The translations under genes and the position numbers were made by a program. From contig CAYOIJ010000005.1 in the NCBI GenBank assembly GCA_964404025.1, positions 1-63,228 of the forward strand: a stretch of 63,228 bases of DNA, given 5' to 3'. Within the stretch, counting starts at the first letter, position 1, and the number at the start of each line of letters is the position of its first letter. The notes under the pieces are model-generated. The model was not told the DNA's origin. It saw only the letters and a list, made by a program, of their open reading frames with translations, and did not search any database. Shown piece after piece: positions 12,572 to 51,109 of the stretch. The stretch comes from an uncultured Pseudomonadales bacterium (GTDB taxonomy: Bacteria > Patescibacteriota > Microgenomatia > UBA1400 > PJMF01).

Positions 12572-12632
12572 AACAAAAAGTATTTAAAATTTCATCACGC
12601 TTAGGGTCATTTTCTCTAGCTAAAATTAAAGG

Positions 12633-16291: not shown

Positions 16292-16492
16292 AGCTTCCTC
16301 TTCTAGCACTAAGGCTTACAACTTAATAATATTGTGTGTTTTCTTTGATTTAGTAAATAATTTTTTTGCAAAAAAACCGGCGACTCTGTAAACAAACAAA
16401 GCGCTCGGTTTAACTTTAGCAGATGCTGATCCATCTACACTTCAATATAACAAAAATAGTATTAAGAAACAAGTTTTGCTATAATGTTTTTT

Positions 16493-17065: not shown

Positions 17066-17066
17066 T

Positions 17067-17708
17067 TTATAACTTTCTTCTTCCCTCAAGGGCTCGTGCT
17101 AAAGTTACTCCATCCGCGTATTCAATATCAGCACCAATTGGCAAACCATGACCAATGCGAGTAATTGTTAACTCGCCACTGTCAATTTTTTTGGCAAAAA
17201 AACGATCATTTTTTAGCATTTCAGCAATATAAAGCGCTGTCGCCTCACCTTCCATAGTTGGATTGGTGGCTAAAATCAGTTCCTTAACCTGTAAATCTCC
17301 GGCTTTATTTTTTAAACGCTTAACAATGTCTCGCAAGTAAAGCTGATCGGGACCAATATTATTTAGGGGTGCAATTGAACCGTGTAAAACATGGTAATTG
17401 CCTAAATATTTACCGGAGTGTTCTATGGCTATCAAATCTAAGGCCTGTTCTACCACACACAATACTTCTTGATCTCGTTGTTTATCCTGACAAATATCAC
17501 AAGGATCTTGCTCTGCCACATTGTGACAAGTTTTACACATAACCGTTTCTCGTTTAAGTGCCAATAGTTTTTCAGAAAAGTCCTCTAGATGAGCTTCTGA
17601 AGTATGTAGTAAATAAAACACCAAGCGTTGAGCGGATTTTGGGCCAACACCAGGCAGAGTTTCAAATTTTTCAATTAAACGACGCAGTGCTTTAGGTAAT
17701 TTTTGCAT
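17067..17708 (-). CDS. recR: Recombination mediator RecR
   Basis: LPGVGPKSAQRL, C4 Zn finger, YHVLHG, ELILATNPTMEGEATA. Confidence 0.97.
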   Translation of the reverse strand: MQKLPKALRRLIEKFETLPGVGPKSAQRLVFYLLHTSEAHLEDFSEKLLALKRETVMCKTCHNVAEQDPCDICQDKQRDQEVLCVVEQALDLIAIEHSGKYLGNYHVLHGSIAPLNNIGPDQLYLRDIVKRLKNKAGDLQVKELILATNPTMEGEATALYIAEMLKNDRFFAKKIDSGELTITRIGHGLPIGADIEYADGVTLARALEGRRKL

Positions 17709-17711
17709 AAA

Positions 17712-18425
17712 TTATTCTGAATATTCCAAATCAAGATCTGACAGCTCATCTCGCCAAGGACTAAGCTCTTTTTTCACTAAAAAATCTTTAACAATTTGCC
17801 AAATTTTCTTTTCAACCTGTTCAATGCTGGGCTGAGCATCAATAACTACCCAACGAGCATTTTTAGCATTTTTTTTCTGATCTTTTTTTGCTAGTTCTAA
17901 ATATGATTGACGAACTTTTTGGTGAAAATCTTTGGCTTCCATATCCAAACGATTAACATCACCCGCGCCATTTCTTCTTTCAAGACCAATTTTTACTGGA
18001 ATATCAAGTAAGAAAGTAATATCTGGATAAGTTTTTTTGGTTGAAATATCATTCAATTGCTCAATTAATTCAATGCCAAAACCCCTTACCATGCCCTGAT
18101 AAACCACGCTACTATCCCGAGATCGATCCATGACGACTATTTTGCCAGCCTTCAGTGAAGGCAAAACTATTTCTCGATAAATTTGCGAACGAGCCGCTTG
18201 AAATAATAAAACTTCCGTAGTAAAAGCAATACCAATGTTTTTACTAGATAAAACTACTTCACGAATTTGCTCACTAATGGCTGTCCCGCCTGGTTCACGC
18301 AAAACCACTACATCCTTACCAGCTTCAATAAGACGATTCTTTAAACGCACAATTTGAGTAGTCTTACCGCCTCCCTCTCCACCTTCCAGAGTAATCAATA
18401 ATCCAGTTTTTTGCGCAGGCTTCAT
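17712..18425 (-). CDS. tmk: Thymidylate kinase
   Basis: EGGEGGGKTT, REPGGT, MDR, PDITFLLD. Confidence 0.96.
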   Translation of the reverse strand: MKPAQKTGLLITLEGGEGGGKTTQIVRLKNRLIEAGKDVVVLREPGGTAISEQIREVVLSSKNIGIAFTTEVLLFQAARSQIYREIVLPSLKAGKIVVMDRSRDSSVVYQGMVRGFGIELIEQLNDISTKKTYPDITFLLDIPVKIGLERRNGAGDVNRLDMEAKDFHQKVRQSYLELAKKDQKKNAKNARWVVIDAQPSIEQVEKKIWQIVKDFLVKKELSPWRDELSDLDLEYSE

Positions 18426-18486
18426 AAATTTACTTTCTATTTAGTCTTTTATTATATTTAGCAATAATTATAAAATCTTTTTTTAT

Positions 18487-18921
18487 TTAATGCTGGCCAG
18501 TACTACCAAAACCACCTCGATTTTTCTGATCATTAAAATCATCTAGCTCCTCCCACTCAACTTTTTCTCTTCTCAAAACTATCATTTGGACTACTCGCTC
18601 ACCCTTTTGTACAGTCACCGTTTTTTTGGAGAAATTGAAGACAGCTGCCCGATACTCATCTTCAGCGCCACAATAATCACTATCGCCAACACCAACCCCA
18701 TTAACTAGAAACAAGCCTTTCTTATGCAGTGAACTACGCGCTGCTACCAAAACAAAACTATCTTTAGGTATTTGTAGTGCAATATTAAGTGGTAAATAAG
18801 CAACCTGTCCAGCTTCAATTTTTACTTCTTCTCTACTAGCTAAATCCAAAGCCGCAGCGCCACTAGTTTTATAAGCTGGCAATACTAGGGTTTTATCGAA
18901 GCGCTTAATCTTAACTTTCAT
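18487..18921 (-). CDS. dut: Trimeric dUTPase
   Basis: AALDL, ARSSL, GVGDSDYCG, GERVVQ, RGGFGSTG. Confidence 0.96.
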   Translation of the reverse strand: MKVKIKRFDKTLVLPAYKTSGAAALDLASREEVKIEAGQVAYLPLNIALQIPKDSFVLVAARSSLHKKGLFLVNGVGVGDSDYCGAEDEYRAAVFNFSKKTVTVQKGERVVQMIVLRREKVEWEELDDFNDQKNRGGFGSTGQH

Positions 18922-18988
18922 TAATTTCCTCTTATTAAATTCAGCGATCATACTAACAAGTTTTTGATAAATAAGCTAGACTAAAGTA

Positions 18989-19597
18989 ATGAATTTGAGT
19001 ACTTTTACACTTGGCGATTTACAAACTAATTGCTATTTACTTGATAATAATCAAGAAGCAATGATTATTGATCCTAGTGATGATGGTGATTTTTTAAATG
19101 AAGAGCTAAGTCGAAATAATTTACAGTTAAAAGCAGTAGTCTTAACCCATGGTCACTTCGATCATTGTTTGGGTCTATTAAGCTTAGCTGTTTCTTGGCC
19201 TCAATTAAAAATTATGCTTCATCCTAAAGATAATTTCTTACTGGCCCAAGCCCATGATAGCGCTCTACATTGGTTAGGTCGCAACGCTGATCCCGTACCT
19301 AAGGCCAATCAAGAACTTAGTGATGGACAAAAAATCAAATTGGGATCAGAAGCTCTGGAAGTTATTCATACGCCAGGACATACCCCGGGCAGTATTTGCC
19401 TATTAAGTGATAAGCAAGAAAACGGAGAAAGATATTTATTTAGTGGCGACACCCTATTTGCTAATGGCGTGGGTCGCACAGATTTCAGCTATAGCAGCCA
19501 TCAAGATTTACTAAATAGCCTAGCTAAACTAAAAAAGCTTAAACAAGATAATCAATATTCACTTGTCTTAGCTGGTCATGGTGAAAGTTTTTATTAA
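18989..19597 (+). CDS. MBL-fold hydrolase (glyoxalase II-like)
   Basis: THGHFDH, HTPGHTPG, SGDTLF, AGHG. Confidence 0.9.
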   Translation: MNLSTFTLGDLQTNCYLLDNNQEAMIIDPSDDGDFLNEELSRNNLQLKAVVLTHGHFDHCLGLLSLAVSWPQLKIMLHPKDNFLLAQAHDSALHWLGRNADPVPKANQELSDGQKIKLGSEALEVIHTPGHTPGSICLLSDKQENGERYLFSGDTLFANGVGRTDFSYSSHQDLLNSLAKLKKLKQDNQYSLVLAGHGESFY

Positions 19598-19647
19598 AAA
19601 TCAAAAATGTTAGCAAAAAATATAATAATTAAGTATAATAAGAATAT

Positions 19648-19827
19648 ATGATGGAACAAAGACTAGAAGGTCAACAAAGATTAACTGAAAAAGCTCAACT
19701 AATTGAGGATGCAAAAAGAACAGCAGAGGCTCTAAGAAATAATCCACCAAAAATGCGCTTTGATGTGCTTAAAAAACAATATCCTGAACTGAGCGACCAA
19801 GAAATAAATAAATTAATCGAACAATAA
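19648..19827 (+). CDS. Small helical hypothetical protein (59 aa, not in ORF track)
   Basis: MMEQRLEGQQ...LKKQYPELSDQEINKLIEQ; TATAAT 8 nt upstream of ATG. Confidence 0.55.
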   Translation: MMEQRLEGQQRLTEKAQLIEDAKRTAEALRNNPPKMRFDVLKKQYPELSDQEINKLIEQ

Positions 19828-19842
19828 TTCTAAAACAAAATT

Positions 19843-20418
19843 TCAATCTTTGCGTAGCCAATATTGAACAAGGGTTCCTTGTTTATTGAGTGGTATCTCT
19901 TTAACTAACTGAAAATTGCCAAAAATTTTATTATCTTCAAATAGTTTAATCCCTTGACCAAACTTAACTGGTTCAATGGTGATAAACATTTCATCAACTA
20001 AATCCTGCTCAGTAAACAATTGATATAAACTTGCCCCACCACATAAGGCTACTTGCTCATAACCCTCAGTCTTGAGCGCTTGCAAAACTGCCTGAGGAGA
20101 TTTATTGGTGAAGCGTAAGTTATTAGGCAACCAATCCATTTTTAATTTTTTTCGGGCCAGCTCGGCTTGTTTTTCACTATCACGAGTTAAAACCACCATC
20201 AAACGTCCAGGTAAAGGTCGACCAATTGTGTCGTAGGTAGCCCGACCCATAATCAACACTCCAATTTCTTTAGTTTTTTCAGTAAAAAATTGATAGTCTT
20301 CCTCACTGGTCCATTTTGTTGAAGGCAATTTAACACTATCCGCTGGACTAATAAAACCATCTTGGCTGGTAGCTACAATTAAAGTGTTTTTAATTCTGCT
20401 TTTTTTTTGCTCAATCAT
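19843..20418 (-). CDS. folA: Dihydrofolate reductase family protein
   Basis: SQDGFI, LIMGRATYDTIGRPLPGR, CGGASLY, FGQGIKLF; beside thyA. Confidence 0.85.
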   Translation of the reverse strand: MIEQKKSRIKNTLIVATSQDGFISPADSVKLPSTKWTSEEDYQFFTEKTKEIGVLIMGRATYDTIGRPLPGRLMVVLTRDSEKQAELARKKLKMDWLPNNLRFTNKSPQAVLQALKTEGYEQVALCGGASLYQLFTEQDLVDEMFITIEPVKFGQGIKLFEDNKIFGNFQLVKEIPLNKQGTLVQYWLRKD

Positions 20419-21208
20419 CTTTGCCCTTTTGCCAATCAACACTCGTCAATAGTGGACCATACATATCATCTTCGATTTCAATTTCTAGTTCAGCTAATTC
20501 TTGCTCATTAAGTGGTCGGTCCATAAATTCAATCATTTTGCTATCACTTATCAGAGCTAGTGGTGTTTGCTCTGCGACCTCACCCATCTCAAACACAGCA
20601 GCTGTAGCCAGTGCTTCGGCTGCATTGACTTGTACCATTTTAATCTCTCGACCAAATAAATCTTCGTCTCCAACATGATCGTTGAGTGGTTTAAAACCAC
20701 AACTAGCTAGCGACATACCTACCACTCCCCAGCGTAGAGGAACAGAGCGACTATCAGGAATAATGACACCAACTTCTTTGACTGAAAAATCTTCCCTAAG
20801 ATTTCGCCAAATCTTTTCTGCTTCAGCATATAAATTCTTTGGCCAAAGCACATAGTGCTCATCAGCATTAGATTCATCAATCCCTGCATTAATCATTAAA
20901 GTTGCATTGGTGACGGTTAGCATTAAGTCATATTTTGAGCTATGAGGCTCAAGATAATAATCAGCTTCTTGGCGCACTAACTGGTGTTTTAAAGCCCGTT
21001 CTTCTTCTCTACTTACTTCTCTGCCTGTTTTGGCTGCTAAGGTAGGTACTAGTCGTCCTTGTTCGTAAGCAATAATTTTAGAAGTAATTACCAGTACTGA
21101 ACGCTCTGGCAGGCCATCACTAAACTGTTTTTTAATAGCAGCATTGATAATTGGTCGTAGTTCTTGACCAACAGCAATCATTGGAGTCTTTAGCGCAGTA
21201 ACTTTCAT
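20411..21208 (-). CDS. CofE-family gamma-glutamyl ligase (putative FolC2-type folate glutamylase)
   Basis: VITSKII, NAGIDESNA, VIIPDSRSVPLRWG, MGEVAEQTP; overlaps the folA start. Confidence 0.8.
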   Translation of the reverse strand: MKVTALKTPMIAVGQELRPIINAAIKKQFSDGLPERSVLVITSKIIAYEQGRLVPTLAAKTGREVSREEERALKHQLVRQEADYYLEPHSSKYDLMLTVTNATLMINAGIDESNADEHYVLWPKNLYAEAEKIWRNLREDFSVKEVGVIIPDSRSVPLRWGVVGMSLASCGFKPLNDHVGDEDLFGREIKMVQVNAAEALATAAVFEMGEVAEQTPLALISDSKMIEFMDRPLNEQELAELEIEIEDDMYGPLLTSVDWQKGKDD

Positions 21209-21267
21209 AAAAATTCTTTCAGTTCGGCTTTATTCTTTTGTTTCGGCTTTATGATATATTAGAACTT

Positions 21268-22140
21268 ATGGAAAAACAACGTTCTCAATATCAACAACTA
21301 TTAGCTGAAATTCTTGAACACGGACAAAGAGTTAAAACTCCACAAGGAGTAGACGCTCTGACCATTATTGGTCCCAAACCCATGCACTACCAATTAGCAA
21401 ACGGTTTCCCTGCCATTACTGAGCGCAAATTGAGTGAAAAAATTTGGCAACAAGCAATTGCTGAAATTATTGCTTTTATTAATGGTGCTAGAACCATTGA
21501 AGAACTAGAAAGTTATGGTTGCTATTGGTGGAAAGCCTGGGGAACTGAGGCTAAGGCTAAAAAACGAGGGCTTGAAACTGGCGATCTAGGTCCTGGATCC
21601 TATGGAGCTGCTTTTCATGACTTCCCTACTGCTGAAGGGGAAACTTACAACCAATTTGCCAGCATCTTACAGCAAATGCACGAAAAACCTCACCTGCGCA
21701 CTCATTTTATTAGCCCTTGGGTACCTCAATACACTATGCGCATTAAAAATCGCACCCAAAAAGTAGTGGTCTGCCCATGTCATGGTTGGATTCACCTGCG
21801 AATCATTGATAACAAATTAACTCTACACATGTTCCAGCGTAGTGCTGACGTCCCGATTGGTGTTCCAGCCAACATGGTTCAGTATGCTGCGCTAACAACG
21901 ATGATTGCTCAGGTTTTAGATATTGAAGCTTTCGAATTCGTTCATAGTTTTTCTGATGCTCATATTTATGTTGATCAAATTGAGGCAGTAAAAACCATGC
22001 TTGAGCGAGAACTACGCCCCCTACCCGAAATGAAGCTTAATCCTAAAGTTAAAGATTTATTTGCTTTTCGCAAAGAAGACTTCACTTTAGAAAACTATAA
22101 ACCTCATCCTGGTATTTGGAATATTCCAGTAGCAGTATAA
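21268..22140 (+). CDS. thyA: Thymidylate synthase
   Basis: FPAITERK, LGPGSYG, catalytic PCH, QRSADVPIGVPAN, DAHIY. Confidence 0.95.
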   Translation: MEKQRSQYQQLLAEILEHGQRVKTPQGVDALTIIGPKPMHYQLANGFPAITERKLSEKIWQQAIAEIIAFINGARTIEELESYGCYWWKAWGTEAKAKKRGLETGDLGPGSYGAAFHDFPTAEGETYNQFASILQQMHEKPHLRTHFISPWVPQYTMRIKNRTQKVVVCPCHGWIHLRIIDNKLTLHMFQRSADVPIGVPANMVQYAALTTMIAQVLDIEAFEFVHSFSDAHIYVDQIEAVKTMLERELRPLPEMKLNPKVKDLFAFRKEDFTLENYKPHPGIWNIPVAV

Positions 22141-22142
22141 AA

Positions 22143-22610
22143 ATGGCAAAAAAACAGAAAAATCAGTTTATCGATATCGATAACGCACGCGAAAAAGAGC
22201 AAAAACAACTCATGGAGGATATTGCTGAGGCTAAACATTGCCCTTTCTGTCGAGAAAATCTTTGTAAATATCACCGAGAACCAATTCTTAAAGAAGGCAA
22301 GTTTTGGATAGTGACTACTAACCAATGGCCATACAAACATAGTAAGCATCATTTTTTATTAATTTACAAAGTTCATGCCATCAATTTAAGTGATTTATCA
22401 CCAGCTGCTGGTCAAGAATTATTTGAACTAGTAGCAGAAATTGAAGAATCTTATAAACTTCGGGGTGGTGGCCTTGCCATGCGTTTTGGCGATACGGATT
22501 ATAGCGCTGGCACCATTAGCCACTTGCATATTCAACTAATTGAACCAGACTTAGCAGATCCAGATTTCAGTCCGGTCAGAATCAAAATTGGTAAAGATAA
22601 AACTAAGTAG
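22143..22610 (+). CDS. HIT-superfamily protein, HxHxQ type
   Basis: HCPFC, NQWPY, SHLHIQ; starts 2 nt after the thyA stop. Confidence 0.85.
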   Translation: MAKKQKNQFIDIDNAREKEQKQLMEDIAEAKHCPFCRENLCKYHREPILKEGKFWIVTTNQWPYKHSKHHFLLIYKVHAINLSDLSPAAGQELFELVAEIEESYKLRGGGLAMRFGDTDYSAGTISHLHIQLIEPDLADPDFSPVRIKIGKDKTK

Positions 22611-23463
22611 TAAGACTTTTCTTAATTAGCTTTTGTAAAAGCCAGGCTACTGCGCATTCATCATTGGAACGCTCTAACACTATTTCAGCCACTTCCTTAA
22701 CTGCTGGTTTAGCATTAGCCACAGCTACTCCCACACCCTCTACCATAGCTTCAATATCATTGTCTCCATCACCAACCATCATAATCTCTTTTGGGTCCAG
22801 TCGGTGATACTCTGCCCATTTTTTTAAACCCTTGGCTTTTGAAACGCCTGACAAAGTAATGTTGTAATAGGGTCGCTGATCAAAAGTACTTAATAATTTA
22901 TCTAGCTGAAATATCTTTTTTTCCTCTAAAGCTTGCATGTAGGCCTCCACTGACTCATTTAAATGATTGATTACAATTAAACCAGTGGTCCAATTATCAT
23001 CATTTTTTATATTTGCGTGGGGCAAATAGTCAATAGGTTCGCTACTCTGCCTACCTTCAAGAAAAGATTGTCCACAATAAAAAACCCGTCCATTACCGAA
23101 AGCAAAGCTGCCACCCAACCCCTCAATATCTCGACAGATTTTTTTTGCAATCAAAGGGTTGATTGCTTCCTGCCACAAAACCTCTGCTTTAGCATCAATT
23201 ATCATGGCTCCATCACAAACCACATGCAAAGAGTCGGGAGCAAATTCAGTAAATACTGGTAAAACTGTCTTAATTAAGGCCGCTGGATGACGAGCAGTAC
23301 AGAGGGCTAATTTGGGTAAAGAGGAGTCGTGCTGGCTTTTAATTAAATAATCTACAATGGCATCCCGATTCTCTATTGACAATTGCCGATGACTATCCAG
23401 TAAGGTGCGATCAACATCCGTTAAAACACCTCTAGGCATGGGTAGTTCTTTATTGTTTATCAT
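22603..23463 (-). CDS. Cof-type HAD-IIB phosphatase
   Basis: TDVDRTL, CTAR, GVSKAKG, VGDGDND, AVANA. Confidence 0.9.
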   Translation of the reverse strand: MINNKELPMPRGVLTDVDRTLLDSHRQLSIENRDAIVDYLIKSQHDSSLPKLALCTARHPAALIKTVLPVFTEFAPDSLHVVCDGAMIIDAKAEVLWQEAINPLIAKKICRDIEGLGGSFAFGNGRVFYCGQSFLEGRQSSEPIDYLPHANIKNDDNWTTGLIVINHLNESVEAYMQALEEKKIFQLDKLLSTFDQRPYYNITLSGVSKAKGLKKWAEYHRLDPKEIMMVGDGDNDIEAMVEGVGVAVANAKPAVKEVAEIVLERSNDECAVAWLLQKLIKKSLTT

Positions 23464-24406
23464 TCAAACTATTATCTATTATTTCTGATGATATTATATC
23501 TTGAATTTGATCGCGTAGGTTTTGTGGCAAAGTTCCTAGTTCACCTAAGATGCTTTCCATCCATACAGAATTAGGTTTTAACCATTTATGGTGAGCTGGA
23601 GTCGCATTGGTATCTGCATAATTGAAAATAAACAAATAAGCTAAAAGTAATTCTTGCTGTTGCCTATTTCCTGGTAAGAATTCTCGCCAATCTTTGAACT
23701 GTTCACAACCTAAATCAAGAGTAAAATTATAAAAAATATGGTGATTGGCTATTAAATAAGTAATTAATTCTATTTCTTTCTCTCCCAAATATTCACTTTT
23801 AAGTTGATTAGCTCTCCCTTCATAAAGACTTAAAAAGAGTAAAGCGGAAGTGAGTTGGTGATCAGGAAAAGAATTTTTTAAAACTCCCTGTTCATCCTTA
23901 GTGTCTTCGTAAGCCTGATGAGCTAAGGCTTGCTCAAGTTCTTCTCTATTTAAACCAGCTGAAATAGCCTTACCCAAATCATGGTGTAGAGCAAAAACTC
24001 TTAATATCAGTTTATGTTTGTCACCTAAATATTCTGTCGGTAGTTCATCTAAAACTTTAAAAATATGCTCAGCTGAATTGAGCCCATTTTTTTGATGAGC
24101 TTTGGTTAAAATAATTTCTGGATCAGCTAAAAATCTAAAAAGTTGAGTGTTGTCTAACAAACGCTTTATAGTGGGCAAAATATCTTTTTTAAATCTATCG
24201 TTTTCAAAGCAATTGGCAATACTTAACAAAGTCATTGCAGACTTAAAAACTTGTCGATCTAAATTAATGTTTGGCCAGAGCAAATCACAAGCATCTTCTT
24301 CTTTATCTGAATGTCGCTGACTGGCCTCTATTCCTCTATTTATTTTTTTTGGATGAGTTAGTAACTCTAAGCTAGCTAATGAAAGTTTCTCAGATAAGGA
24401 CGTCAT
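23450..24406 (-). CDS. HD-domain protein
   Basis: EHIF...ALHHDLGK...DH...ANHH...YAD. Confidence 0.7.
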   Translation of the reverse strand: MTSLSEKLSLASLELLTHPKKINRGIEASQRHSDKEEDACDLLWPNINLDRQVFKSAMTLLSIANCFENDRFKKDILPTIKRLLDNTQLFRFLADPEIILTKAHQKNGLNSAEHIFKVLDELPTEYLGDKHKLILRVFALHHDLGKAISAGLNREELEQALAHQAYEDTKDEQGVLKNSFPDHQLTSALLFLSLYEGRANQLKSEYLGEKEIELITYLIANHHIFYNFTLDLGCEQFKDWREFLPGNRQQQELLLAYLFIFNYADTNATPAHHKWLKPNSVWMESILGELGTLPQNLRDQIQDIISSEIIDNSLNDKQ

Positions 24407-24441
24407 AGATTTGTATAATCTATCACACTAGATCAATAGCT

Positions 24442-25401
24442 TCAAGAATAGCGCTTTTTAAAATTACTAGAGCGAGCTTGTTGATTTGCAAGCTCCTGCT
24501 CTTCTTCTTTAGAAAATTGCACTTTAATGATTTCTATGCCAGCACTAGCTAAAACCTTGTACCCATCCAAAAGCGAATAACCTTGGCTGTAATAAAGCCG
24601 TTTAATCCCGGCCGCAACTACTTGTTTAGCACAAACCGGACAAGGAAAAGTGGTCACAAATAAATCTGCTCCAGCTAAAGCAATGCCTTGGCTGGCAGCG
24701 CGAGCGATAGCGAGCGCCTCCGCATGAATAGAACTTGTTAATTCAATGGCTTCTCCAGAAGAAAATAAAGTGCGTGGATCACCACTAAAATATTGTTCTT
24801 GTTGGCTGGGTAAATGCTGATTGTAGGCACTCATCAATACTTGACCATCTTTAAGAAAAACCACTCCCACTTGTCTCCACCAATCATTACTATAATTAGC
24901 CTGTACAAAGGCTTTTTTCATTACTTCTTTTTCAAACTCATCCCCACTAATTACTTGATCAGCTGTTAATTTATTTTCTTTTTCTAAAACTGCTTTGGAC
25001 TGTGCTGCCCGTTCAACACTGGGTCTATCCCAGCGCAAAAAGAAAGAATCAAAACTAATCTTTTGCTTTTTCAAAAATTTTTTAGCTAAATATCTACCTA
25101 AATCATCATTGCTTAGCACCCACTCTTGCTCTTTACTTTGAAGTTTATCTAGAAAAACCTGCCAATCTTCTCGATTTTCTACTACTTTAATTTCGATATT
25201 AGGGTAAATTTTCTCCAGGATCTGCTTTACCAATTGGCTACTTAGAGCTCTAATATCTTTTTTTAAATATTCAAAATCTGGCCATTGAGATAAAAATTGC
25301 CGATCAAATAAAAACAATGATTTGGCGTCTTTATTCTTTTCTAAAAATAAACGATAACCCTCATGTATTACAGGTAAATACAGAGCTAAGTTTTTTTGCA
25401 T
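24442..25401 (-). CDS. dCMP deaminase-like domain with about 150-aa N-terminal extension
   Basis: RQVGVV, HAE, TTFPCPVCAK, GIKRLYY. Confidence 0.88.
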   Translation of the reverse strand: MQKNLALYLPVIHEGYRLFLEKNKDAKSLFLFDRQFLSQWPDFEYLKKDIRALSSQLVKQILEKIYPNIEIKVVENREDWQVFLDKLQSKEQEWVLSNDDLGRYLAKKFLKKQKISFDSFFLRWDRPSVERAAQSKAVLEKENKLTADQVISGDEFEKEVMKKAFVQANYSNDWWRQVGVVFLKDGQVLMSAYNQHLPSQQEQYFSGDPRTLFSSGEAIELTSSIHAEALAIARAASQGIALAGADLFVTTFPCPVCAKQVVAAGIKRLYYSQGYSLLDGYKVLASAGIEIIKVQFSKEEEQELANQQARSSNFKKRYS

Positions 25402-25962
25402 TTAATCCTCTTTAAATTCTGCCAATACGTCTTCTATTGTATTAATCAACTGGCTGGCCATTTTATCTTTAATTTTATTAGCAGTATTCATCTGCATTAG
25501 ACGAATTTTACCCGTAGTACTTGTAGTTGCCATTGGCTCTAAAACTACAATCTTTCCACATATTTCTTCTAGTTTGCGAATTGTTTCTATATCGTAAGTT
25601 TCTTTGGTTGCTACCAAAACATCAGGCTTAATCGTTTTAATTAAATTAAATTTTGCATCATTCAATTCTTTAAGTACTACATAATCTACACTGCGTAAAT
25701 GAGTCAGCATTTCCATTCTTTCATTTTGCGGAACAATTGGTCGATGTCGACCTTTGCGTTTTTTTACTTTTTCATCACTATCAACTCCAACAATTAATAA
25801 ATCACCATATGATTTGGCTTTTTCACAATAACGAGCATGGCCAATATGTACTAAATCAAAGGATCCCTGAGTCAAAACAACTTTTTTAGCTTTTTTTCTA
25901 GCTTGATCTACAATCTCTTTTATTTCACTGGCATTAAAGATAATGCGCACTGTTTTGTTCAT
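25402..25962 (-). CDS. HIGH-motif cytidylyl/adenylyltransferase (TagD/RfaE-II-like)
   Basis: GSFDLVHIGH, VGVDSD, RPIVPQNER, VDYV, TSTT. Confidence 0.9.
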   Translation of the reverse strand: MNKTVRIIFNASEIKEIVDQARKKAKKVVLTQGSFDLVHIGHARYCEKAKSYGDLLIVGVDSDEKVKKRKGRHRPIVPQNERMEMLTHLRSVDYVVLKELNDAKFNLIKTIKPDVLVATKETYDIETIRKLEEICGKIVVLEPMATTSTTGKIRLMQMNTANKIKDKMASQLINTIEDVLAEFKED

Positions 25963-26008
25963 AGAGAAACTATAACATAAGTTTAATTAAAGAAACAAAG
26001 CCAGATAA

Positions 26009-26320
26009 TTAGCTAGTGGGTCGTTTGATTTTTACGCCCACCATATCAATTTTAGGAAAATCCTCTCTGACTAGGTCCCAAAACTTTTGAGAGAGTTTGT
26101 CAGAGTAAACACTATAAATACCTCGGCCCATAGCTGCACATAGTCGACGATCATAATCACGAATAATATCCAAAACCTCTTTGCCTAATTGATGAAAGGC
26201 CTCCCCACCCTTTTCTTCATCTTGCTCAAATTGTTGATGAATCTTAGCAAATTGATCAAACACTGGTCGATTGTCATCAATCATTTTTTGATAATAAATT
26301 TGATATTTAGCTTGAGGCAT
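26009..26320 (-). CDS. Hypothetical protein
   Basis: 103-aa ORF overlapping the nadD stop. Confidence 0.6.
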   Translation of the reverse strand: MPQAKYQIYYQKMIDDNRPVFDQFAKIHQQFEQDEEKGGEAFHQLGKEVLDIIRDYDRRLCAAMGRGIYSVYSDKLSQKFWDLVREDFPKIDMVGVKIKRPTS

Positions 26321-26915
26321 ATAGGTTGTGTTTCACAATATACTTAATAATTCTTTGGTCAAGTAATTTTACTAAATCAGTTTCTTTGCTGGGGTTTTCC
26401 AAAGCCTCTCTGACTTGAGTGGAAGAAACAGCCACGGCTTGCAGTTGAGACAATGGAATCATTTTTTCATACAAGGGTTTCAGAGGAAAACCTACTCTTG
26501 GATAAACATAGGTTGGATAATTATTGAGTAAATAATGATAATCCCTGCCTAGTTGGTCATACCATAGATCAAATTTAGCTAAATTGTCGCTACCCATCAA
26601 AAAAGAAAACTGATGCTGCGGATAACGAGCACTTAAATAATCCAGAGTGGTCGCAGTATAACTAGTTTGAAAATAACGAGTTTCGCAATCTTCAATTTTT
26701 ATTTGATTAAAAAAATCCTCTCCTGCTTTGGGTAAAATGAGCTCGAGCATATCTAGACGCCGATCGGCTGAAACAACGCTTTTGTTAAAATCATGTTCGC
26801 CTACTGGCAAATACCAAATTTGATCAACCAGTCCCATTTCCAATACTGATTTGACCATTTGTTGATGACCAAGATGAGGAGGGTTAAAGCTTCCACCAAA
26901 AAGCATTACTTTCAT
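26307..26915 (-). CDS. nadD: Nicotinate-nucleotide adenylyltransferase
   Basis: GGSFNPPHLGH, MGSDN, VSSTQVR. Confidence 0.9.
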   Translation of the reverse strand: MKVMLFGGSFNPPHLGHQQMVKSVLEMGLVDQIWYLPVGEHDFNKSVVSADRRLDMLELILPKAGEDFFNQIKIEDCETRYFQTSYTATTLDYLSARYPQHQFSFLMGSDNLAKFDLWYDQLGRDYHYLLNNYPTYVYPRVGFPLKPLYEKMIPLSQLQAVAVSSTQVREALENPSKETDLVKLLDQRIIKYIVKHNLYASS

Positions 26916-29143
26916 GAAGATTTTTTCTTTTTACTCGCCTTCTTAGTTGTAGTTTTTTTACTTTTACCTTTAGCTCGTTTGGCTTTCCAAGCAGCCCGCT
27001 TGGCCTGAATTTCTTCCCATTCGGCCTGACTGAGCTTATATCCAGGCTCTGGCTTTTTCCAGGAAGCCCATTTACATTTTGGATAATCAGAGCAACCATA
27101 AAAAGATTTGCCCCAACGAGTATTTTTAATAACAATATCACCTTTACCACACAAAGGACAAAGTTGGTCACCCAGTGTTTCAACTAAATTTTCAGTATAT
27201 TTACAATCTGGAAAACGGCTACAGCTCTTAAATTTGCCAAAACGACCAGAGCGAATAACTATTTCACCTGCTTCTTTAGCTTCCAGTTCTCCAGCTTTCA
27301 CTAATTTAGCGCAATCAGGACAGTTTTCACCGGTTTTTTCAACTGGCACCGCCACTCTATCTGCTTCTTTACTAACTGATTCAATTTTTTCAGCTAGAGG
27401 TTTATAAAACAAATCAACTACTTTTGTCCAAACTTTTTTTCCCTCGGCTATTTTATCTAAACTCTCCTCAATCTTGGCGGTAAAATCATAATCCATCAGC
27501 ACTGTAAAGTGTTTTAATAGAAAATCGCTAACTGTCGTTCCAATTGGTGTAGCAAAAAATTTGCGATTTTTTCTTTCTACATAACCTCTTTGTCTAATCA
27601 CTGAAATAATGGAGGCATAAGTACTAGGACGACCTATACCTCTTTTTTCCAATTCTTTAACCAAAGACGCATCGTTGTAACGAGCTGGGGGTTGAGTAAA
27701 TTTTTGCATTGGACATTGGGCTAAATAATGCAAATTTTGATTAACTTTAACTTCAGGTAATAATAAATCATTTTTTTGACTAAACAAGCGCCTCCAACCA
27801 GGAAATCTCATGACTGAGCCGACAACTTTTAGCTCATATTCTTTATCACTGTTTTGCACAGTAGCACTCACTAAAATCGTAGTTTGATCATAAATAGCCT
27901 CACTCATTTGTGAAGCTAAAAATCGTCGCCAAATTAAATCATAAAGTTTAATGTGGTTGGCAGTTAACTTAGTTATTTTTTGACTAAGATTATCTTTAGT
28001 AATAGTCAGGTCCGTGGCGCGAATTGCTTCATGAGCTTCTTGAGAATTTTTACTTTTTTTACTGAAATGGCGTGCTTGACTAGGTAAATAATCTTTACCA
28101 AATTCCTGAGCAATATATTGACGTGCCGATTCAACAGCACTTTTAGCTAAATAAAAGGCGTCCGTACGATGGTAGGTAATTAAACCTTCTTCATAAAGAC
28201 GCTGAGCTAAACTCATCGTCTGGCTAGCACTAAAACCAAAACGGTTAGCCGCAGTTTGTTGTAGCAATGAAGTAGTAAAAGGCGGTAAACTTTGTCGACG
28301 CCTTTCAACTTGATTCAAGTCTTTAACTTTATAAGTCGCCTTATCTAGATCTTTGATGACTTCTTTAGCTTGAGCTTCATTGTCAATTTTTAATTTTTTA
28401 TCTTCTAATTTTTCTACTGATAATAGTAAAATTTCTTTATCTAAATCTGCCTTAGCTCTATTTTCAAGAAAAATCGCTTCTTTTTGGCGTAATTTATCCA
28501 GCTCTTCTTGCTTAAAATGGTCTGGAATTGCTAAAGCAACAGCAAACTCCCAGTATTCTTCACTCTTAAAAGCTTCGATCTCTCTTTCTCTCTCAACAAT
28601 GAGTCGCAGTGCCACTGATTGCACTCGTCCAGCAGACAAACCTCTTCTCACTTTTTTCCATAAAACTGGTGATACTTTGTAACCAACTAAGCGATCCAAA
28701 ATTCGTCGTGCTTGTTGAGCATCAACTAGGTCTAGGTTAATAGTAGTTGGCTTATTAATGGCCTTAATGACCGCTGGCTTGGTGATTTCATGAAAGGTAG
28801 AGCGCAAAAAACTTCGATCTCCCTTATCCTTTTTCTTCATTGCCCGATCATTTTCCAATAAATACTGGATGTGCCAAGCAATCGCTTCTCCTTCGCGATC
28901 CGGATCCATGGCTAGATAAACTTCTTTAGCCTCTCTAGCTAAGCTACGGAGCTTACTAACCACCTTTTTCTTATCAGCACTAACTTCATAGATTGGTTGA
29001 TAATTGTTTTCTAAATCAATACCCAGATTTTTTTTAGGCAAATCTCTAACATGACCAACAGAGGCTTCTACCACATAGTCGCTGCCTAAATACGATTTGA
29101 GCTTCCTTGCTTTTGTCGGTGATTCAACAATAACTAAATTCAT
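26912..29143 (-). CDS. topA: DNA topoisomerase I
   Basis: IVESPTKA, DPDREGE, SAGRVQS, ITYHRTD, GIGRPSTYA, Zn ribbons, Lys-rich tail. Confidence 0.98.
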   Translation of the reverse strand: MNLVIVESPTKARKLKSYLGSDYVVEASVGHVRDLPKKNLGIDLENNYQPIYEVSADKKKVVSKLRSLAREAKEVYLAMDPDREGEAIAWHIQYLLENDRAMKKKDKGDRSFLRSTFHEITKPAVIKAINKPTTINLDLVDAQQARRILDRLVGYKVSPVLWKKVRRGLSAGRVQSVALRLIVEREREIEAFKSEEYWEFAVALAIPDHFKQEELDKLRQKEAIFLENRAKADLDKEILLLSVEKLEDKKLKIDNEAQAKEVIKDLDKATYKVKDLNQVERRRQSLPPFTTSLLQQTAANRFGFSASQTMSLAQRLYEEGLITYHRTDAFYLAKSAVESARQYIAQEFGKDYLPSQARHFSKKSKNSQEAHEAIRATDLTITKDNLSQKITKLTANHIKLYDLIWRRFLASQMSEAIYDQTTILVSATVQNSDKEYELKVVGSVMRFPGWRRLFSQKNDLLLPEVKVNQNLHYLAQCPMQKFTQPPARYNDASLVKELEKRGIGRPSTYASIISVIRQRGYVERKNRKFFATPIGTTVSDFLLKHFTVLMDYDFTAKIEESLDKIAEGKKVWTKVVDLFYKPLAEKIESVSKEADRVAVPVEKTGENCPDCAKLVKAGELEAKEAGEIVIRSGRFGKFKSCSRFPDCKYTENLVETLGDQLCPLCGKGDIVIKNTRWGKSFYGCSDYPKCKWASWKKPEPGYKLSQAEWEEIQAKRAAWKAKRAKGKSKKTTTKKASKKKKSS

Positions 29144-29237
29144 AAAATTTTTCTTTTACTGCTTGTCTATTATAGTGATCAGTGCAAGCGCTAAGCCCTC
29201 ATTTTAAAAGGATTAAGGAAAAAAAAGCAACTGTAGC

Positions 29238-30398: not shown

Positions 30399-30454
30399 TT
30401 AATAAAGATAGAAAATAAATATGACAATTAACTAAACATCATCAAAACAGGAAA

Positions 30455-51090: not shown

Positions 51091-51109
51091 CATTTTTCAA
51101 CTTAGTCAA

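What the first reader, a model, noticed from the sequence alone, without database searches (positions are those of the whole stretch)
17712..26915. Thymidylate super-cluster with an unexplained nucleotidyl-transfer module
Seen: within 9 kb lie tmk, dut, folA, the cofE-like gene, thyA and a dCMP deaminase, the expected route dCMP to dUMP to dTMP to dTDP. Interleaved and translationally coupled are enzymes with no known role in that route: a HIGH cytidylyltransferase (stop abuts the deaminase ATG), an HD protein, a Cof HAD phosphatase, an HxHxQ HIT protein coupled to thyA, an MBL hydrolase and nadD. Inference: an undescribed pathway or control circuit that adds and removes nucleotidyl groups. 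It might harvest (d)NMPs from host-derived conjugates (CDP-alcohols, NAD, Ap4N), or make a dinucleotide signal that regulates dTTP/dCTP balance in an organism lacking de novo synthesis.
Basis: partly seen in the sequence, partly recalled or inferred. Interest (0 to 1): 0.7.

Follow-up and report, generated by a model that had tools for sequence, protein, structure and literature searches.

The report
Conserved transferase–deaminase–HIT–ThyA gene block
In this ultra-small (Patescibacteria) bacterium the genes that make the DNA base thymine sit with a nucleotide-attaching enzyme, a two-domain cytosine deaminase and a nucleotide-removing HIT enzyme; these four genes stay together across the whole phylum, pointing to an undescribed step or control in thymine supply.

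Summary
All 13 genes are at the stated coordinates and the stop/start junctions are as described.

tmk, dut, a DHFR-like reductase, a FolC2-type CofE-like glutamate ligase, thyA and a Zn dCMP-deaminase form an ordinary thymidylate locus. The HD, Cof-HAD and MBL genes are lineage-specific inserts, found in 4, 6 and 16 of 83 related loci. nadD is a syntenic neighbour.

Four genes form a real conserved core:
- Transferase and deaminase are adjacent in 81/83 loci.
- thyA→HIT converges on that pair (HIT in 75/83 loci, thyA in 74/83).
- A search started from HIT finds thyA in 50/53 loci, the deaminase in 46/46 and the transferase in 45/46.
- In at least 16 loci the four genes are inverted in place as one unit.

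The deaminase carries an uncatalogued N-terminal domain. Its predicted fold is closest to HIGH-type nucleotidyltransferases, and the family lacks the canonical dCTP/dTTP allosteric motif. The transferase fails the curated cut-offs for heptose and glycerol-3-P enzymes. The HIT has the transferase-type HxHxQ motif.

My best guess, which is inferred and untested: a cycle that attaches and removes a nucleotidyl "handle", coupled to cytosine deamination, supplies dUMP to ThyA. I found no description of this block in the literature searched.

The parts
17712..18425 (-). tmk, dTMP kinase. Part of the ordinary thymidylate route.
   Evidence: TIGR00041 175 bits against cut-off 83; PF02223 E=4.9e-45. 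Found near the core in 40/83 loci.
18487..18951 (-). dut, dUTP diphosphatase.
   Evidence: TIGR00576 106.3 bits against cut-off 102.55. Found near the core in 54/83 loci.
18989..19597 (+). MBL-fold hydrolase of unknown substrate. A lineage-specific insert, not part of the core.
   Evidence: PF00753 E=1.4e-31. Best NCBIfam match is GloB at 96.6 bits, below its cut-off of 200.8. Present in only 16/83 loci.
19843..20442 (-). Divergent DHFR-like reductase. It would recycle the dihydrofolate made by ThyA.
   Evidence: PF00186 E=1.1e-16 and RibD_C E=2.7e-14. Found in 60/83 loci.
20411..21208 (-). CofE-like, FolC2-type putative folate gamma-glutamate ligase.
   Evidence: TIGR04132 229 bits (cut-off 350), well above the F420 CofE model at 112 bits. 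Chlamydia CT611, a CofE homologue of the same COG1478 family, complements E. coli folC (PMC1971073). Found in 24/83 loci.
21238..22140 (+). thyA, thymidylate synthase (a likely ATG start lies at 21268). Core gene.
   Evidence: PF00303 E=1.3e-66; TIGR03284 194.6 bits against cut-off 108. The alignment to solved bacterial TS (E=3e-51) keeps the catalytic PCH motif and QRSADV..GVP.N..YA. Found in 74/83 loci.
22143..22610 (+). HIT-superfamily protein with CPFC, N-Q-W-P-Y and H-x-H-x-Q motifs. Core gene, 2 nt after the thyA stop.
   Evidence: PF01230 22.6 bits. Homologues are 45-88% identical. The motif reads HxHxQ in 25/32 and HxHxH in 7/32 aligned members. Only weak sequence matches to solved HIT proteins, best E=4.5e-4. 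Junction read. The thyA-to-HIT gap is <=30 nt in 50/74 loci.
22603..23463 (-). Cof-type HAD-IIB phosphatase. A lineage-specific insert between the deaminase and HIT.
   Evidence: PF08282 E=3.6e-31. TIGR00099 102.6 bits, below its cut-off of 137. Present in 6/83 genome loci.
23450..24406 (-). Orphan HD-motif protein ('HHDLGK'). A lineage-specific insert.
   Evidence: Only weak Cas3_HD-type matches (18-22 bits). No sequence match to solved structures. Present in 4/83 loci.
25027..25401 (-). N-terminal domain of the deaminase (residues 1-125). An uncatalogued Rossmann-like domain with invariant P10 V11 H13 Y16, K48, R51 and F-L-R-W-D 121-125 (Y8 and G15 nearly invariant).
   Evidence: No Pfam match in 30/30 members. 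No PDB sequence match. AlphaFold2 pLDDT 91.6, pTM 0.85. The top eight Foldseek PDB hits are all HIGH-type nucleotidyltransferases (NMNAT, GCT 1coz with TM 0.60 and prob 0.99, PPAT), but E is only ~0.04. 580 representative clusters carry it; in the top 150 it lies at or near the N-terminus of proteins of 101-333 aa, most of them 250-333 aa.
24442..24939 (-). Zn-dependent dCMP-deaminase domain (residues ~155-295) plus a C-terminal tail.
   Evidence: PF00383 E=4.7e-18. The HAE and PCxxC motifs are present. About 30% identity to phage dCMP deaminases; Foldseek E=1.7e-9 to 1vq2 and 2.6e-9 to 4p9c. The canonical allosteric motif G(Y/W)N(A/G) is degenerate: position 4 is never A or G in 38/38 members (motif from PMC12088426).
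25402..25962 (-). HIGH-type nucleotidyltransferase ('CT'). Motifs GSFDLVHIGH, RKGxxRPIVP and TTSTSAKIR, plus a ~45-aa conserved C-terminal helical tail. Core gene; its stop abuts the deaminase ATG.
   Evidence: PF01467 E=8e-24. rfaE_dom_II 126.8 bits against cut-off 181.5; TagD model 46 bits against cut-off 165.4. Closest solved relatives are ECT 3elb and HldC 5x9q. The HldC 'KGGDY' segment is replaced by 'ATKETY'. At least 544 species representatives encode it. Junction read.
26009..26320 (-). Small conserved hypothetical protein (103 aa) between nadD and CT.
   Evidence: No match in Pfam, NCBIfam, PHROGs or PADLOC. Homologue at the same position in 26/83 loci.
26307..26915 (-). nadD, nicotinate-nucleotide adenylyltransferase. 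A syntenic neighbour that belongs to the dprA-topA-nadD(-nadE) block, not to the core.
   Evidence: TIGR00482 117.8 bits against cut-off 112.45. Found in 48/83 loci. It lies on the far side of the core where the core is inverted.

Best explanation
The 9-kb region is the thymidylate-supply locus of a Patescibacteria genome.

**Ordinary part.** dCMP deaminase makes dUMP, ThyA makes dTMP and Tmk makes dTDP. Dut, a DHFR-like reductase and a FolC2-type folate glutamate ligase support them.

**Unusual part.** A four-gene core is conserved across the phylum. It is two convergent, tightly coupled pairs: [HIGH-type nucleotidyltransferase → two-domain deaminase] facing [thyA → HIT].

**Proposed mechanism (inferred, not shown).**
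1. The transferase uses an NTP or dNTP to build a pyrophosphate-linked conjugate that contains a (deoxy)cytidylate. This could be dCTP + phospho-acceptor → dCDP-X + PPi, or ATP + dCMP → an NAD-like AppdC.
2. The deaminase carries a transferase-like N-terminal nucleotide-binding domain in place of the usual dCTP/dTTP allosteric site. Through this domain it docks on the transferase, as the tandem domains of ethanolamine-phosphate cytidylyltransferase (ECT) do, or it binds the nucleotide handle.
3. The HxHxQ HIT enzyme, translated together with ThyA, removes the handle by hydrolysis or phosphorolysis.
4. dCMP/dUMP is thereby released to ThyA.

The net effect is a gated route from the cytidine-nucleotide pool to dUMP. 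It would do the job that the dUTPase-fold dCTP deaminase Dcd does in other bacteria.

**Confidence.** I put about 0.65 on the weaker claim that the four genes are functionally linked. I put about 0.35-0.4 on the handle mechanism as stated. The HD, HAD and MBL genes and nadD are not part of the core.
For: **Shown.**
- Gene identities.
- CT and deaminase are adjacent in 81/83 loci from different species representatives. The gap is within -23 to +31 nt in 78/82.
- HIT is present in 75/83 and thyA in 74/83, convergent on the pair. The thyA-to-HIT gap is <=30 nt in 50/74.
- The reciprocal metagenome search from HIT finds thyA 50/53, deaminase 46/46 and CT 45/46.
- The four genes are inverted in place as one unit between nadD and dhfr/dut in at least 16 loci, for example L024 compared with L022. 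They persist in about 20 loci with no topA or nadD within 10 kb.
- The deaminase N-domain occurs in 580 representative clusters; in the top 150 it lies at or near the N-terminus of proteins of 101-333 aa, most of them 250-333 aa. The 120 full-length homologues listed are 272-335 aa with deaminase Pfam domains.
- Its confident model is closest to HIGH-type nucleotidyltransferases. The invariant H-x-G-Y follows strand 1 and R-W-D follows strand 5. By my knowledge of the family, that is where HxGH and RTEG sit.
- The classical allosteric motif is lost.
- A second HIT paralogue sits inside the core in 17 of 163 related loci, on either pair's strand.
- CT fails the curated cut-offs for HldC and TagD and has a different acceptor-side motif.

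**Inferred.**
- HxHxQ is the motif of the transferase/phosphorylase (GalT/Apa) branch of HIT enzymes. This rests on my own knowledge of the family.
- The cultivated Saccharibacterium Southlakia has tmk-dcd-dhfr-thyA. It has no annotated Zn dCMP deaminase, no 187-aa CT and no HIT next to thyA. This fits the core being an alternative to Dcd (PMC10633639 supplement).
Against: - No substrate is known for CT or HIT. The chemistry is inferred only from superfamily membership.
- The fold match of the N-domain is weak (Foldseek E ~0.04). Other HUP-class proteins such as USP also appear among the hits.
- The profile comparison of the N-domain with CT is not significant.
- Conserved adjacency alone is weak evidence in these streamlined genomes. 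The unrelated genes dprA-topA-nadD are just as syntenic.
- In many lineages CT lies directly after nadD-nadE, which could instead tie it to cofactor synthesis.
- A one-step dCTP pyrophosphatase would be simpler than a two-enzyme cycle.
- The Dcd replacement argument rests on a single genome.
- No fusion of CT with the deaminase, or of HIT with ThyA, was seen.
Confidence: 0.4

Rival explanations
1. Incidental synteny. CT is a housekeeping cofactor or envelope nucleotidyltransferase, for example a RibL-like FMN adenylyltransferase, a PPAT-like enzyme, or a TagD/HldC-like enzyme. It is co-transcribed with nadD-nadE. HIT is a generic Ap4A/Hint-type housekeeping hydrolase. Their position next to the deaminase and thyA is a frozen gene order in a streamlined genome and has no shared chemistry behind it.
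For: - The order nadD-(nadE)-CT-deaminase is seen in distant lineages. nadE lies near the core in 70/163 loci.
- Clearly unrelated genes (mreC, PBP2, dprA, topA, nadD) share the same conserved order.
- CT has weak matches to archaeal PPAT (47.6 bits) and FAD-synthetase models.
- CT and HIT show housekeeping-level conservation, with median 57% and 54% identity, similar to TopA at 58%.
Against: - The four genes stay together when the nadD/topA block is on the other side or absent, and they invert as one unit.
- The CT stop and deaminase start are coupled in 78/82 loci.
- The deaminase has a CT-superfamily-like domain found only in this architecture.
- A second HIT paralogue is inserted specifically inside the core.
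- The reciprocal association from the HIT side is nearly complete.
- CT fails every curated equivalog cut-off tested.
Confidence: 0.25
2. Regulatory reading. The N-terminal domain is an allosteric nucleotide sensor. It replaces the lost dCTP/dTTP site of classical dCMP deaminases. CT and HIT respectively make and destroy a small nucleotide effector (an NDP-X or a dinucleotide) that tunes the dC→dU→dT flux. They do not carry the flux themselves.
For: - The canonical G(Y/W)N(A/G) allosteric motif is degenerate in all 38 aligned family members (motif definition in PMC12088426).
- The N-domain has a HUP-class nucleotide-binding fold. Universal-stress-protein-like regulatory domains also appear among its structural neighbours.
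- CT and HIT have opposite chemistries, as a writer/eraser pair would. This point is an inference.
Against: - No effector is known.
- The invariant H, K, R and R-W-D residues look like a retained catalytic-type site rather than a simple binding site. This is an inference.
- Translational coupling of HIT to ThyA is not obviously needed for a signal eraser.
Confidence: 0.2
3. Flavin/deazaflavin reading. The deaminase would be RibD-like, the 'DHFR' a RibD_C-type pyrimidine reductase, CT a RibL-like FAD synthetase and the CofE-like gene an F420-type ligase. The cluster would then serve flavin metabolism rather than thymidylate metabolism.
For: - The reductase ORF matches RibD_C (E=2.7e-14) as well as DHFR_1.
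- RibD/RibG deaminase domains appear among the fold matches (E~5e-7).
- CT has a weak FAD_syn match (E=5.8e-4).
- The ligase is of the CofE family.
Against: - dCMP deaminases are the best sequence and fold matches (~30% identity, E~1e-9).
- The ligase scores 229 bits on the folate-type model and 112 bits on F420 CofE.
- thyA, dut and tmk are bona fide and linked.
- In one sublineage a classical FolA sits between thyA and HIT.
Confidence: 0.03
4. Anti-phage defence reading. The two-domain deaminase would be a dCTP-depleting defence deaminase, with accessory enzymes around it.
For: There are partial matches to the anti-phage dCTP deaminase models: NF041025 at 76.6 bits and PADLOC dCTPase at 70.7 bits.
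Against: - The matches cover only 59-65 residues of the shared catalytic core and are far below the cut-off (400 bits).
- The N-domain is not the kinase-like domain of those systems.
- The gene sits in a phylum-wide housekeeping locus beside thyA.
- No relatives were found in viral contigs, and no other defence-model matches were found.
Confidence: 0.02

Closest known systems
Classical Zn-dependent dCMP deaminases (DCTD; T4 Cd, cyanophage S-TIM5, S. mutans, human)
   Same: Same catalytic domain with the HAE and PCxxC zinc motifs. About 30% identity to phage enzymes. These are the best sequence and fold matches. The pathway position upstream of ThyA is the same.
   Different: - It carries an extra 125-aa N-terminal Rossmann-like domain that has no Pfam family.
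- The G(Y/W)N(A/G) allosteric motif is not conserved.
- It is always encoded directly after a nucleotidyltransferase gene.
HIGH-signature nucleotidyltransferases of the RfaE-domain-II/HldC, ECT, CCT and TagD (GCT) group
   Same: It has PF01467, the HxGH motif, a KG..RP motif and a (T)STS..R motif. The closest solved relatives are ECT 3elb and HldC 5x9q.
   Different: - It is below the curated cut-offs for HldC (127 against 181.5 bits) and TagD (46 against 165 bits).
- The acceptor-side 'KGGDY' of HldC is replaced by an invariant 'AT..TY'.
- It has a conserved ~45-aa C-terminal helical extension.
- Its context is nucleotide metabolism, not envelope genes.
Ethanolamine-phosphate cytidylyltransferase (two tandem CT domains forming a pseudo-dimer)
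   Same: It is the best-scoring solved relative of CT. It offers a precedent for a canonical CT domain pairing with a second, divergent CT-like domain (the domain pairing is from my own knowledge).
   Different: Here the second CT-like domain is on a separate polypeptide, fused to a deaminase. Pairing between the two is inferred and was not tested.
HIT superfamily, GalT/Ap4A-phosphorylase (HxHxQ) branch
   Same: It has the HIT fold signature, a CxxC motif, N-x-(W/Y)-P-Y and H-x-H-x-Q. JGI names some members 'ATP adenylyltransferase'.
   Different: - It has only weak sequence similarity to any solved HIT (best E=4.5e-4; Ap4A phosphorylase 3ano E~1).
- 7/32 aligned members have HxHxH instead.
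- Its fixed position after thyA has no described precedent that I could find.
Dcd (dUTPase-fold dCTP deaminase) route, as in the Saccharibacterium Southlakia epibionticum (tmk-dcd-dhfr-thyA)
   Same: The locus type and the end product are the same: dUMP for ThyA.
   Different: The enzyme fold is unrelated. That genome has no annotated Zn deaminase, no 187-aa CT and no HIT next to thyA. The core described here may be its functional alternative, but this is an inference from one genome.
FolC2 (Chlamydia CT611), a CofE-like folylpolyglutamate synthase
   Same: The window's CofE-like gene scores best on TIGR04132 and sits between DHFR and thyA, as expected for a folate ligase (PMC1971073).
   Different: Its score is below the curated cut-off (229 against 350 bits). 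The gene is present in only 24/83 related loci.

Membership tests
HldC / RfaE domain II (heptose-1-P adenylyltransferase) | Score at or above the curated equivalog-domain cut-off of TIGR02199 | tested here: not met
   126.8 bits against a cut-off of 181.5.
HldC / RfaE domain II (heptose-1-P adenylyltransferase) | Conserved acceptor-side 'KGGDY' segment | tested here: not met
   In the alignment to HldC 5x9q, 'LVKGG-DYD' is aligned to 'LVATKETYD'. A118, T119 and Y123 are invariant in the family.
HldC / RfaE domain II (heptose-1-P adenylyltransferase) | Genomic association with heptose pathway or LPS genes | tested here: not met
   The neighbours are nadD/nadE, the deaminase, HIT and thyA in ~160 loci. 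No heptose genes appear in the gene lists.
TagD (glycerol-3-phosphate cytidylyltransferase) | Score at or above the cut-off of TIGR01518 | tested here: not met
   46 bits against a cut-off of 165.4.
HIGH-signature nucleotidyltransferase superfamily (PF01467) | HxGH motif after strand 1, a C-terminal (I)STS..R-type motif, and Pfam gathering score | tested here: met
   For CT: 84.8 bits against a cut-off of 21; H39-I-G-H42 and T147-S-T149..R154 are invariant.
HIGH-signature nucleotidyltransferase superfamily (membership of the deaminase N-domain) | Sequence-profile match or significant fold match with the HxGH motif | tested here: inconclusive
   - No Pfam match.
- hhalign against the CT profile is not significant.
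- The top eight Foldseek hits are all family members, but E~0.04 and TM 0.5-0.6.
- The motif is H-x-G-Y, not H-x-G-H.
Zn-dependent dCMP deaminase (DCTD) | HxE and PCxxC zinc/catalytic motifs | tested here: met
   HAE at residue 226 and PCPVC at residue 253. H226, E228, C254 and C257 are invariant.
Zn-dependent dCMP deaminase (DCTD) | G(Y/W)N(A/G) allosteric-site motif (PMC12088426) | tested here: not met
   Position 1 is G in 14/38. Position 2 is Y in 21/38 and never W. N is invariant. Position 4 is never A or G, in 38/38.
Zn-dependent dCMP deaminase (DCTD) | dCMP (not dCTP or CMP) as substrate; homohexamer | not testable with these tools
   This needs an enzyme assay and a measurement of oligomeric state.
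Anti-phage dCTP deaminase | Full-length match (NF041025 cut-off 400 bits) with an N-terminal kinase-like domain | tested here: not met
   76.6 bits over 65 residues of the catalytic core only. The PADLOC match covers 59 residues.
HIT superfamily | Histidine-triad motif H-x-H-x-(H/Q) and Pfam HIT gathering score | tested here: met
   22.6 bits against a cut-off of 21.5. H127 and H129 are invariant. Position 131 is Q in 25/32 and H in 7/32.
GalT / Ap4A-phosphorylase branch of HIT (transferases) | Gln in place of the third His, plus transfer to phosphate or a phospho-acceptor rather than to water | tested here: inconclusive
   Gln is present in the window protein and in most of the family but not all members. 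The sequence match to Ap4A phosphorylase 3ano is at chance level (E~1). Activity is not testable here.
Thymidylate synthase ThyA | Curated equivalog score; catalytic Cys-His; Asn that selects dUMP | tested here: met
   TIGR03284 194.6 bits against a cut-off of 108. The 'PCH' and 'GVPaNmvqYA' segments align to those of solved TS.
FolC2-type folate gamma-glutamate ligase (TIGR04132) | Score at or above the curated cut-off | tested here: not met
   229.1 bits against a cut-off of 350. It is still the best-matching model, and the match covers the full length 1-241/241.

The most novel reading that the evidence does not exclude
Patescibacteria would make dUMP for ThyA through a 'nucleotide-handle' pathway that has no described precedent.
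1. A dedicated nucleotidyltransferase converts a deoxycytidine nucleotide into a pyrophosphate-linked conjugate.
2. A deaminase reads the handle through its own transferase-derived domain and deaminates the conjugate.
3. A transferase-type HIT enzyme coupled to ThyA removes the handle, possibly regenerating NDP or NTP.

The result would be that dU intermediates never enter the free nucleotide pool.
Probability: 0.15. Interest if true: 0.85.

Novelty: new variant of a known kind. Interest (0 to 1): 0.6.

Why it matters
Thymidylate synthesis is one of the best-known pathways in biology and a classic drug target.

Here a huge, mostly uncultivated bacterial phylum keeps three extra components welded to ThyA and the dCMP deaminase:
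- a distinct nucleotidyltransferase;
- a new nucleotide-binding domain on the deaminase;
- a transferase-type HIT enzyme.

If these act together, they define either a new way of drawing dUMP from cytidine nucleotides or a new way of controlling the dCTP/dTTP balance. That matters in organisms that live on salvaged nucleotides.

It would also assign functions to three protein families that are present in at least 544 species representatives but are annotated only generically, or wrongly as 'heptose-1-P adenylyltransferase'. The hypothesis can be tested directly with three small soluble proteins.

Tried and rejected
- **N-domain sequence searches.** No significant match in PDB (best E=0.16). No Pfam family in any of 30 members. 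No PHROGs match.
- **N-domain against CT.** The profile-profile comparison is not significant (probability 0.1). The only aligned stretch is LHeGY against VHIGH, so common ancestry with CT is not shown.
- **Full-length deaminase fold search.** It returned only deaminase-domain hits. A separate model of the N-domain was needed.
- **Viral contigs.** No relatives of the N-domain, so I dropped the phage-origin idea.
- **Defence models.** Only partial catalytic-core matches, so I rejected the defence reading.
- **RNA elements.** Rfam found no riboswitch or other RNA family in 16000-30500.
- **Promoter and terminator scans.** Not enriched over shuffled sequence, so I drew no operon boundaries from them.
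- **HD protein.** No solved relative and only weak Cas3-HD matches. Its function is left open, but it is lineage-specific.
- **Literature.** Searches on HIT/ThyA/cytidylyltransferase/dCMP deaminase in Patescibacteria found no description of the block.
- **Flavin reading.** Considered and rejected; see the rival explanations.

Full report
**1. What is there**

The window is a low-GC (about 36%) housekeeping stretch of a Patescibacteria genome. It also encodes DnaB, HisRS, RF, CysRS, TGT, YchF, RecR, TopA, DprA and an MreBCD/PBP2-type block. Its closest relatives are MAGs labelled Pacebacteria, Woesebacteria or Paceibacterota.

Between 17712 and 26915 lie 13 tightly packed genes.
- tmk, dut, thyA and nadD all score above their curated equivalog or superfamily cut-offs.
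- The other genes are an MBL-fold hydrolase, a DHFR-like reductase, a CofE-like ligase, a HIT protein, a Cof-type HAD, a weak HD protein, a dCMP-deaminase-domain protein, a HIGH-type cytidylyltransferase-like protein (called CT below) and a 103-aa hypothetical.

- The CT stop codon TAA is followed at once by the deaminase ATG.
- The thyA stop is followed by 2 nt and then the HIT ATG.

**2. What is ordinary**

- dCMP deaminase, ThyA and Tmk, with Dut and a DHFR-like reductase, make up the textbook route to dTDP.
- The CofE-like gene matches best the NCBIfam model for a 'putative folate metabolism gamma-glutamate ligase' (229 bits). It matches F420 CofE much less well (112 bits). A Chlamydia CofE homologue (COG1478) was shown to complement E. 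coli folC (PMC1971073). This gene therefore fits the folate side of the ThyA reaction and needs no new explanation.
- ThyA aligns end to end with solved bacterial thymidylate synthases. It keeps the catalytic Cys-His and the Asn-containing segment.

**3. Which of the 'extra' genes are really linked**

I built an alignment of CT homologues and scanned one genome per species of the GTDB collection. At least 544 species representatives, essentially all Patescibacteria, encode a relative. I fetched the 80 best loci with 10-kb flanks. tblastn of every window protein against these loci, plus three more loci, gave a clear split:

| Gene | Loci with a homologue (of 83) |
|---|---|
| deaminase, both domains, directly after CT | 81 |
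| HIT | 75 |
| thyA | 74 |
| dhfr | 60 |
| dut | 54 |
| topA | 50 |
| nadD | 48 |
| tmk | 40 |
| cofE-like | 24 |
| MBL | 16 |
| HAD | 6 |
| HD | 4 |

Further points on the linkage:
- The gap from the CT stop to the deaminase start is within -23 to +31 nt in 78/82 loci.
- The gap from the thyA stop to the HIT start is <=30 nt in 50/74 loci.
- A reciprocal scan of metagenome contigs starting from HIT found thyA immediately upstream in 50/53 loci with enough flank. It found the deaminase in 46/46 and CT in 45/46 downstream on the opposite strand.
- Two major arrangements differ by an in-place inversion of exactly these four genes. One is dprA-topA-nadD-[CT-deaminase><HIT-thyA]-dut-dhfr, as in L022. 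The other is dprA-topA-nadD-[thyA-HIT><deaminase-CT]-dhfr-dut, as in L024 and at least 15 others.
- About 20 loci have the four genes with no topA or nadD within 10 kb.

So the core is two convergent pairs, CT→deaminase and thyA→HIT. HD, HAD and MBL are inserts confined to the window's close relatives. nadD belongs to a different syntenic block.

**4. Anatomy of the three unexplained proteins**

*(a) CT.*
- The family is highly conserved: 59 invariant columns in 22 sequences that are 58-96% identical to the window protein.
- Motifs are GSFDLVHIGH, RKGxxRPIVP and TTSTSAKIR, followed by a conserved C-terminal helical tail.
- Its closest solved relatives are human ECT and Burkholderia HldC.
- It fails the curated cut-offs for HldC (126.8 against 181.5 bits) and TagD (46 against 165.4 bits).
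- HldC's 'KGGDY' segment is replaced by an invariant 'AT..TY'.
- JGI's automatic name 'heptose 1-phosphate adenylyltransferase' is therefore not supported.

*(b) The deaminase.*
- It is a two-domain protein. Residues ~155-295 form a Zn deaminase with HAE and PCxxC. They are about 30% identical to phage dCMP deaminases, which are the best fold matches.
- Classical dCMP deaminases bind dCTP and dTTP through a G(Y/W)N(A/G) motif (PMC12088426). That motif is degenerate here. Only the Asn is invariant, and the fourth position is never A or G in 38/38 sequences.
- Residues 1-125 have no Pfam, PDB-sequence or PHROGs match.
- They nevertheless have invariant residues: P10, V11, H13, Y16, K48, R51 and F-L-R-W-D 121-125, with Y8 and G15 nearly invariant.
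- AlphaFold2 predicts a five-stranded Rossmann-like domain with high confidence (pLDDT 91.6, pTM 0.85).
- Its eight best Foldseek matches in the PDB are all HIGH-signature nucleotidyltransferases: archaeal NMNAT, B. subtilis glycerol-3-P cytidylyltransferase (TM 0.60, probability 0.99) and PPAT. The E-values are only about 0.04.
- The H-x-G-Y motif follows strand 1 and R-W-D follows strand 5. By my own knowledge of the family, that is where HxGH and RTEG sit in cytidylyltransferases.
- A search of 1.84 billion representative proteins found this domain in 580 clusters. In the best 150 it lies at or near the N-terminus of proteins of 101-333 aa, most of them 250-333 aa. The 120 full-length homologues listed are 272-335 aa and carry deaminase Pfam domains. 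I saw no other architecture.
- A profile comparison with CT itself is not significant.

*(c) HIT.*
- The family is 45-88% identical across the phylum.
- It has CPFC, N-Q-W-P-Y and H-x-H-x-Q motifs. Position 131 is Gln in 25/32 aligned members and His in 7/32.
- It is only marginally similar to any solved HIT protein (best E=4.5e-4).
- By my own knowledge, HxHxQ marks the GalT/Ap4A-phosphorylase branch. That branch transfers the nucleotidyl group to phosphate or a phospho-acceptor rather than to water.
- In one sublineage (17 of 163 related loci) a second HIT paralogue of 190-225 aa, with HxHxH, lies between the deaminase and HIT. It can be on either pair's strand. In the same sublineage a classical FolA often lies between thyA and HIT.

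**5. How it most likely works**

*Shown.* The four genes are kept together, coupled and moved as a unit across a phylum. The deaminase has lost the usual allosteric motif and gained a nucleotidyltransferase-like domain found nowhere else. CT makes nucleotidyl-phospho bonds and HIT breaks or transfers them, so their chemistries are complementary.

*Inferred.* I propose the following sequence:
1. CT builds a pyrophosphate-linked conjugate containing a (deoxy)cytidylate. Either dCTP reacts with a phospho-acceptor, or ATP reacts with dCMP.
2. The deaminase's N-domain docks on CT, as the tandem CT domains of ECT pair, or it binds the nucleotide handle.
3. HIT, made together with ThyA, removes the handle.
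4. dCMP/dUMP reaches ThyA.

The outcome would be a gated route from cytidine nucleotides to dUMP.

One cultivated Saccharibacterium, Southlakia epibionticum, has tmk-dcd-dhfr-thyA with a dUTPase-fold dCTP deaminase. It has no annotated Zn dCMP deaminase, no 187-aa CT and no HIT next to thyA (PMC10633639 supplementary tables). That fits the core being an alternative to Dcd, but it is a single data point.

I put about 0.65 on the four genes being functionally linked. I put about 0.35-0.4 on the handle mechanism.

**6. Rivals**

- **(i) Incidental synteny, 0.25.** In many lineages the order is nadD-nadE-CT-deaminase. nadE is near the core in 70/163 loci. Unrelated genes such as dprA-topA-nadD are equally syntenic. 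CT could therefore be a cofactor adenylyltransferase that merely shares an operon. Against this stand the unit inversion, the persistence of the core without nadD, the CT-like domain on the deaminase and the HIT paralogue inserted inside the core.
- **(ii) Regulatory reading, 0.2.** The N-domain would be a nucleotide sensor replacing the lost allosteric site, with CT and HIT writing and erasing an effector. This is compatible with all the data and hard to separate from the main model without biochemistry.
- **(iii) Flavin reading, 0.03, and (iv) anti-phage dCTP deaminase, 0.02.** Both are rejected on scores and context.

**7. Comparison with what is known, and novelty**

Each protein belongs to a known superfamily, and the surrounding locus is the known thymidylate/folate route. 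Four things are not described, as far as three literature searches show:
- the phylum-wide CT-deaminase-HIT-ThyA block;
- the N-terminal domain family of the deaminase;
- the distinct CT subfamily;
- the fixed ThyA-HIT pairing.

I rate this a new variant of a known kind of system. It is of moderate to high interest because it attaches three uncharacterised, highly conserved proteins to a textbook pathway and can be tested directly.

**8.

The proposed linkage test is positive for transferase, deaminase, HIT and thyA, and the refutation condition is not met. HD, HAD, MBL and nadD do not belong to the module, and the CofE-like gene already has a plausible known role. The specific mechanistic guesses remain untested.

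Noticed in passing
window 26009-26915 compared with L001 7041-7814 and L002 7196-7993: In many related lineages an NAD synthase gene (nadE) lies between nadD and CT; it is near the core in 70/163 loci. The whole 63-kb window has no tblastn match to nadE. nadD is therefore present here without a nearby nadE.
   Followed up: partly
L050 11419-11997, L061 11469-12047, L079 11419-12009 and 14 other loci: A second HIT paralogue (190-225 aa, CPFC plus HxHxH, with a conserved C-terminal extension) sits between the deaminase and HIT in one sublineage. It can be on either strand. The window has only the one HIT gene.
   Followed up: partly
L050 12527-13018, L061 12612-13097: In the same sublineage a classical ~163-aa FolA-type DHFR lies between thyA and HIT, giving the order thyA-folA-HIT-HIT2. 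The window's reductase is instead a divergent 199-aa DHFR/RibD_C-like protein elsewhere in the locus.
   Followed up: partly
L001 14817-15425 and 15504-16570; unnamed JGI locus: Other lineages carry a YfbR-like HD 5'-deoxynucleotidase-type gene (near the core in 20/163 loci) and an HD-thymidylate kinase fusion at the edge of the same cluster. HD phosphohydrolases are thus repeatedly recruited to this locus, although the window's 318-aa HD protein is a different, orphan one.
   Followed up: partly
window 26009-26320: A 103-aa protein with no family match is conserved at the same position between nadD and CT in 26/83 loci. In L002 it is accompanied by a DUF5652 protein.
   Followed up: no
L001 13526-14800; unnamed JGI locus (11904-13265): A 424-453-aa protein with only a PF27218 (MJ0043_C) domain follows the DHFR gene in some lineages' thymidylate clusters. 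It is absent from the window.
   Followed up: no
record titles of L004, L005, L008-L010 and others: Many 'MAG TPA_asm' records that carry this Patescibacteria-type locus are titled 'uncultured Pseudomonadales bacterium' or 'Gammaproteobacteria'. L013 is titled 'TM6'. These organism labels look unreliable.
   Followed up: no
window 48001-52000 and 56001-60000: These stretches have a lower GC fraction (0.30-0.31) than the rest of the window (0.34-0.41). They flank a large DUF3160 protein gene (52028-54511, 827 aa).
   Followed up: no
window 35551-37689 and 38291-39373: There is a Wzy_C (O-antigen-ligase-like) protein with C-terminal TPR repeats, and a 360-aa formyltransferase-domain protein, which is another folate-dependent enzyme, about 11 kb from the thymidylate locus.
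   Followed up: no
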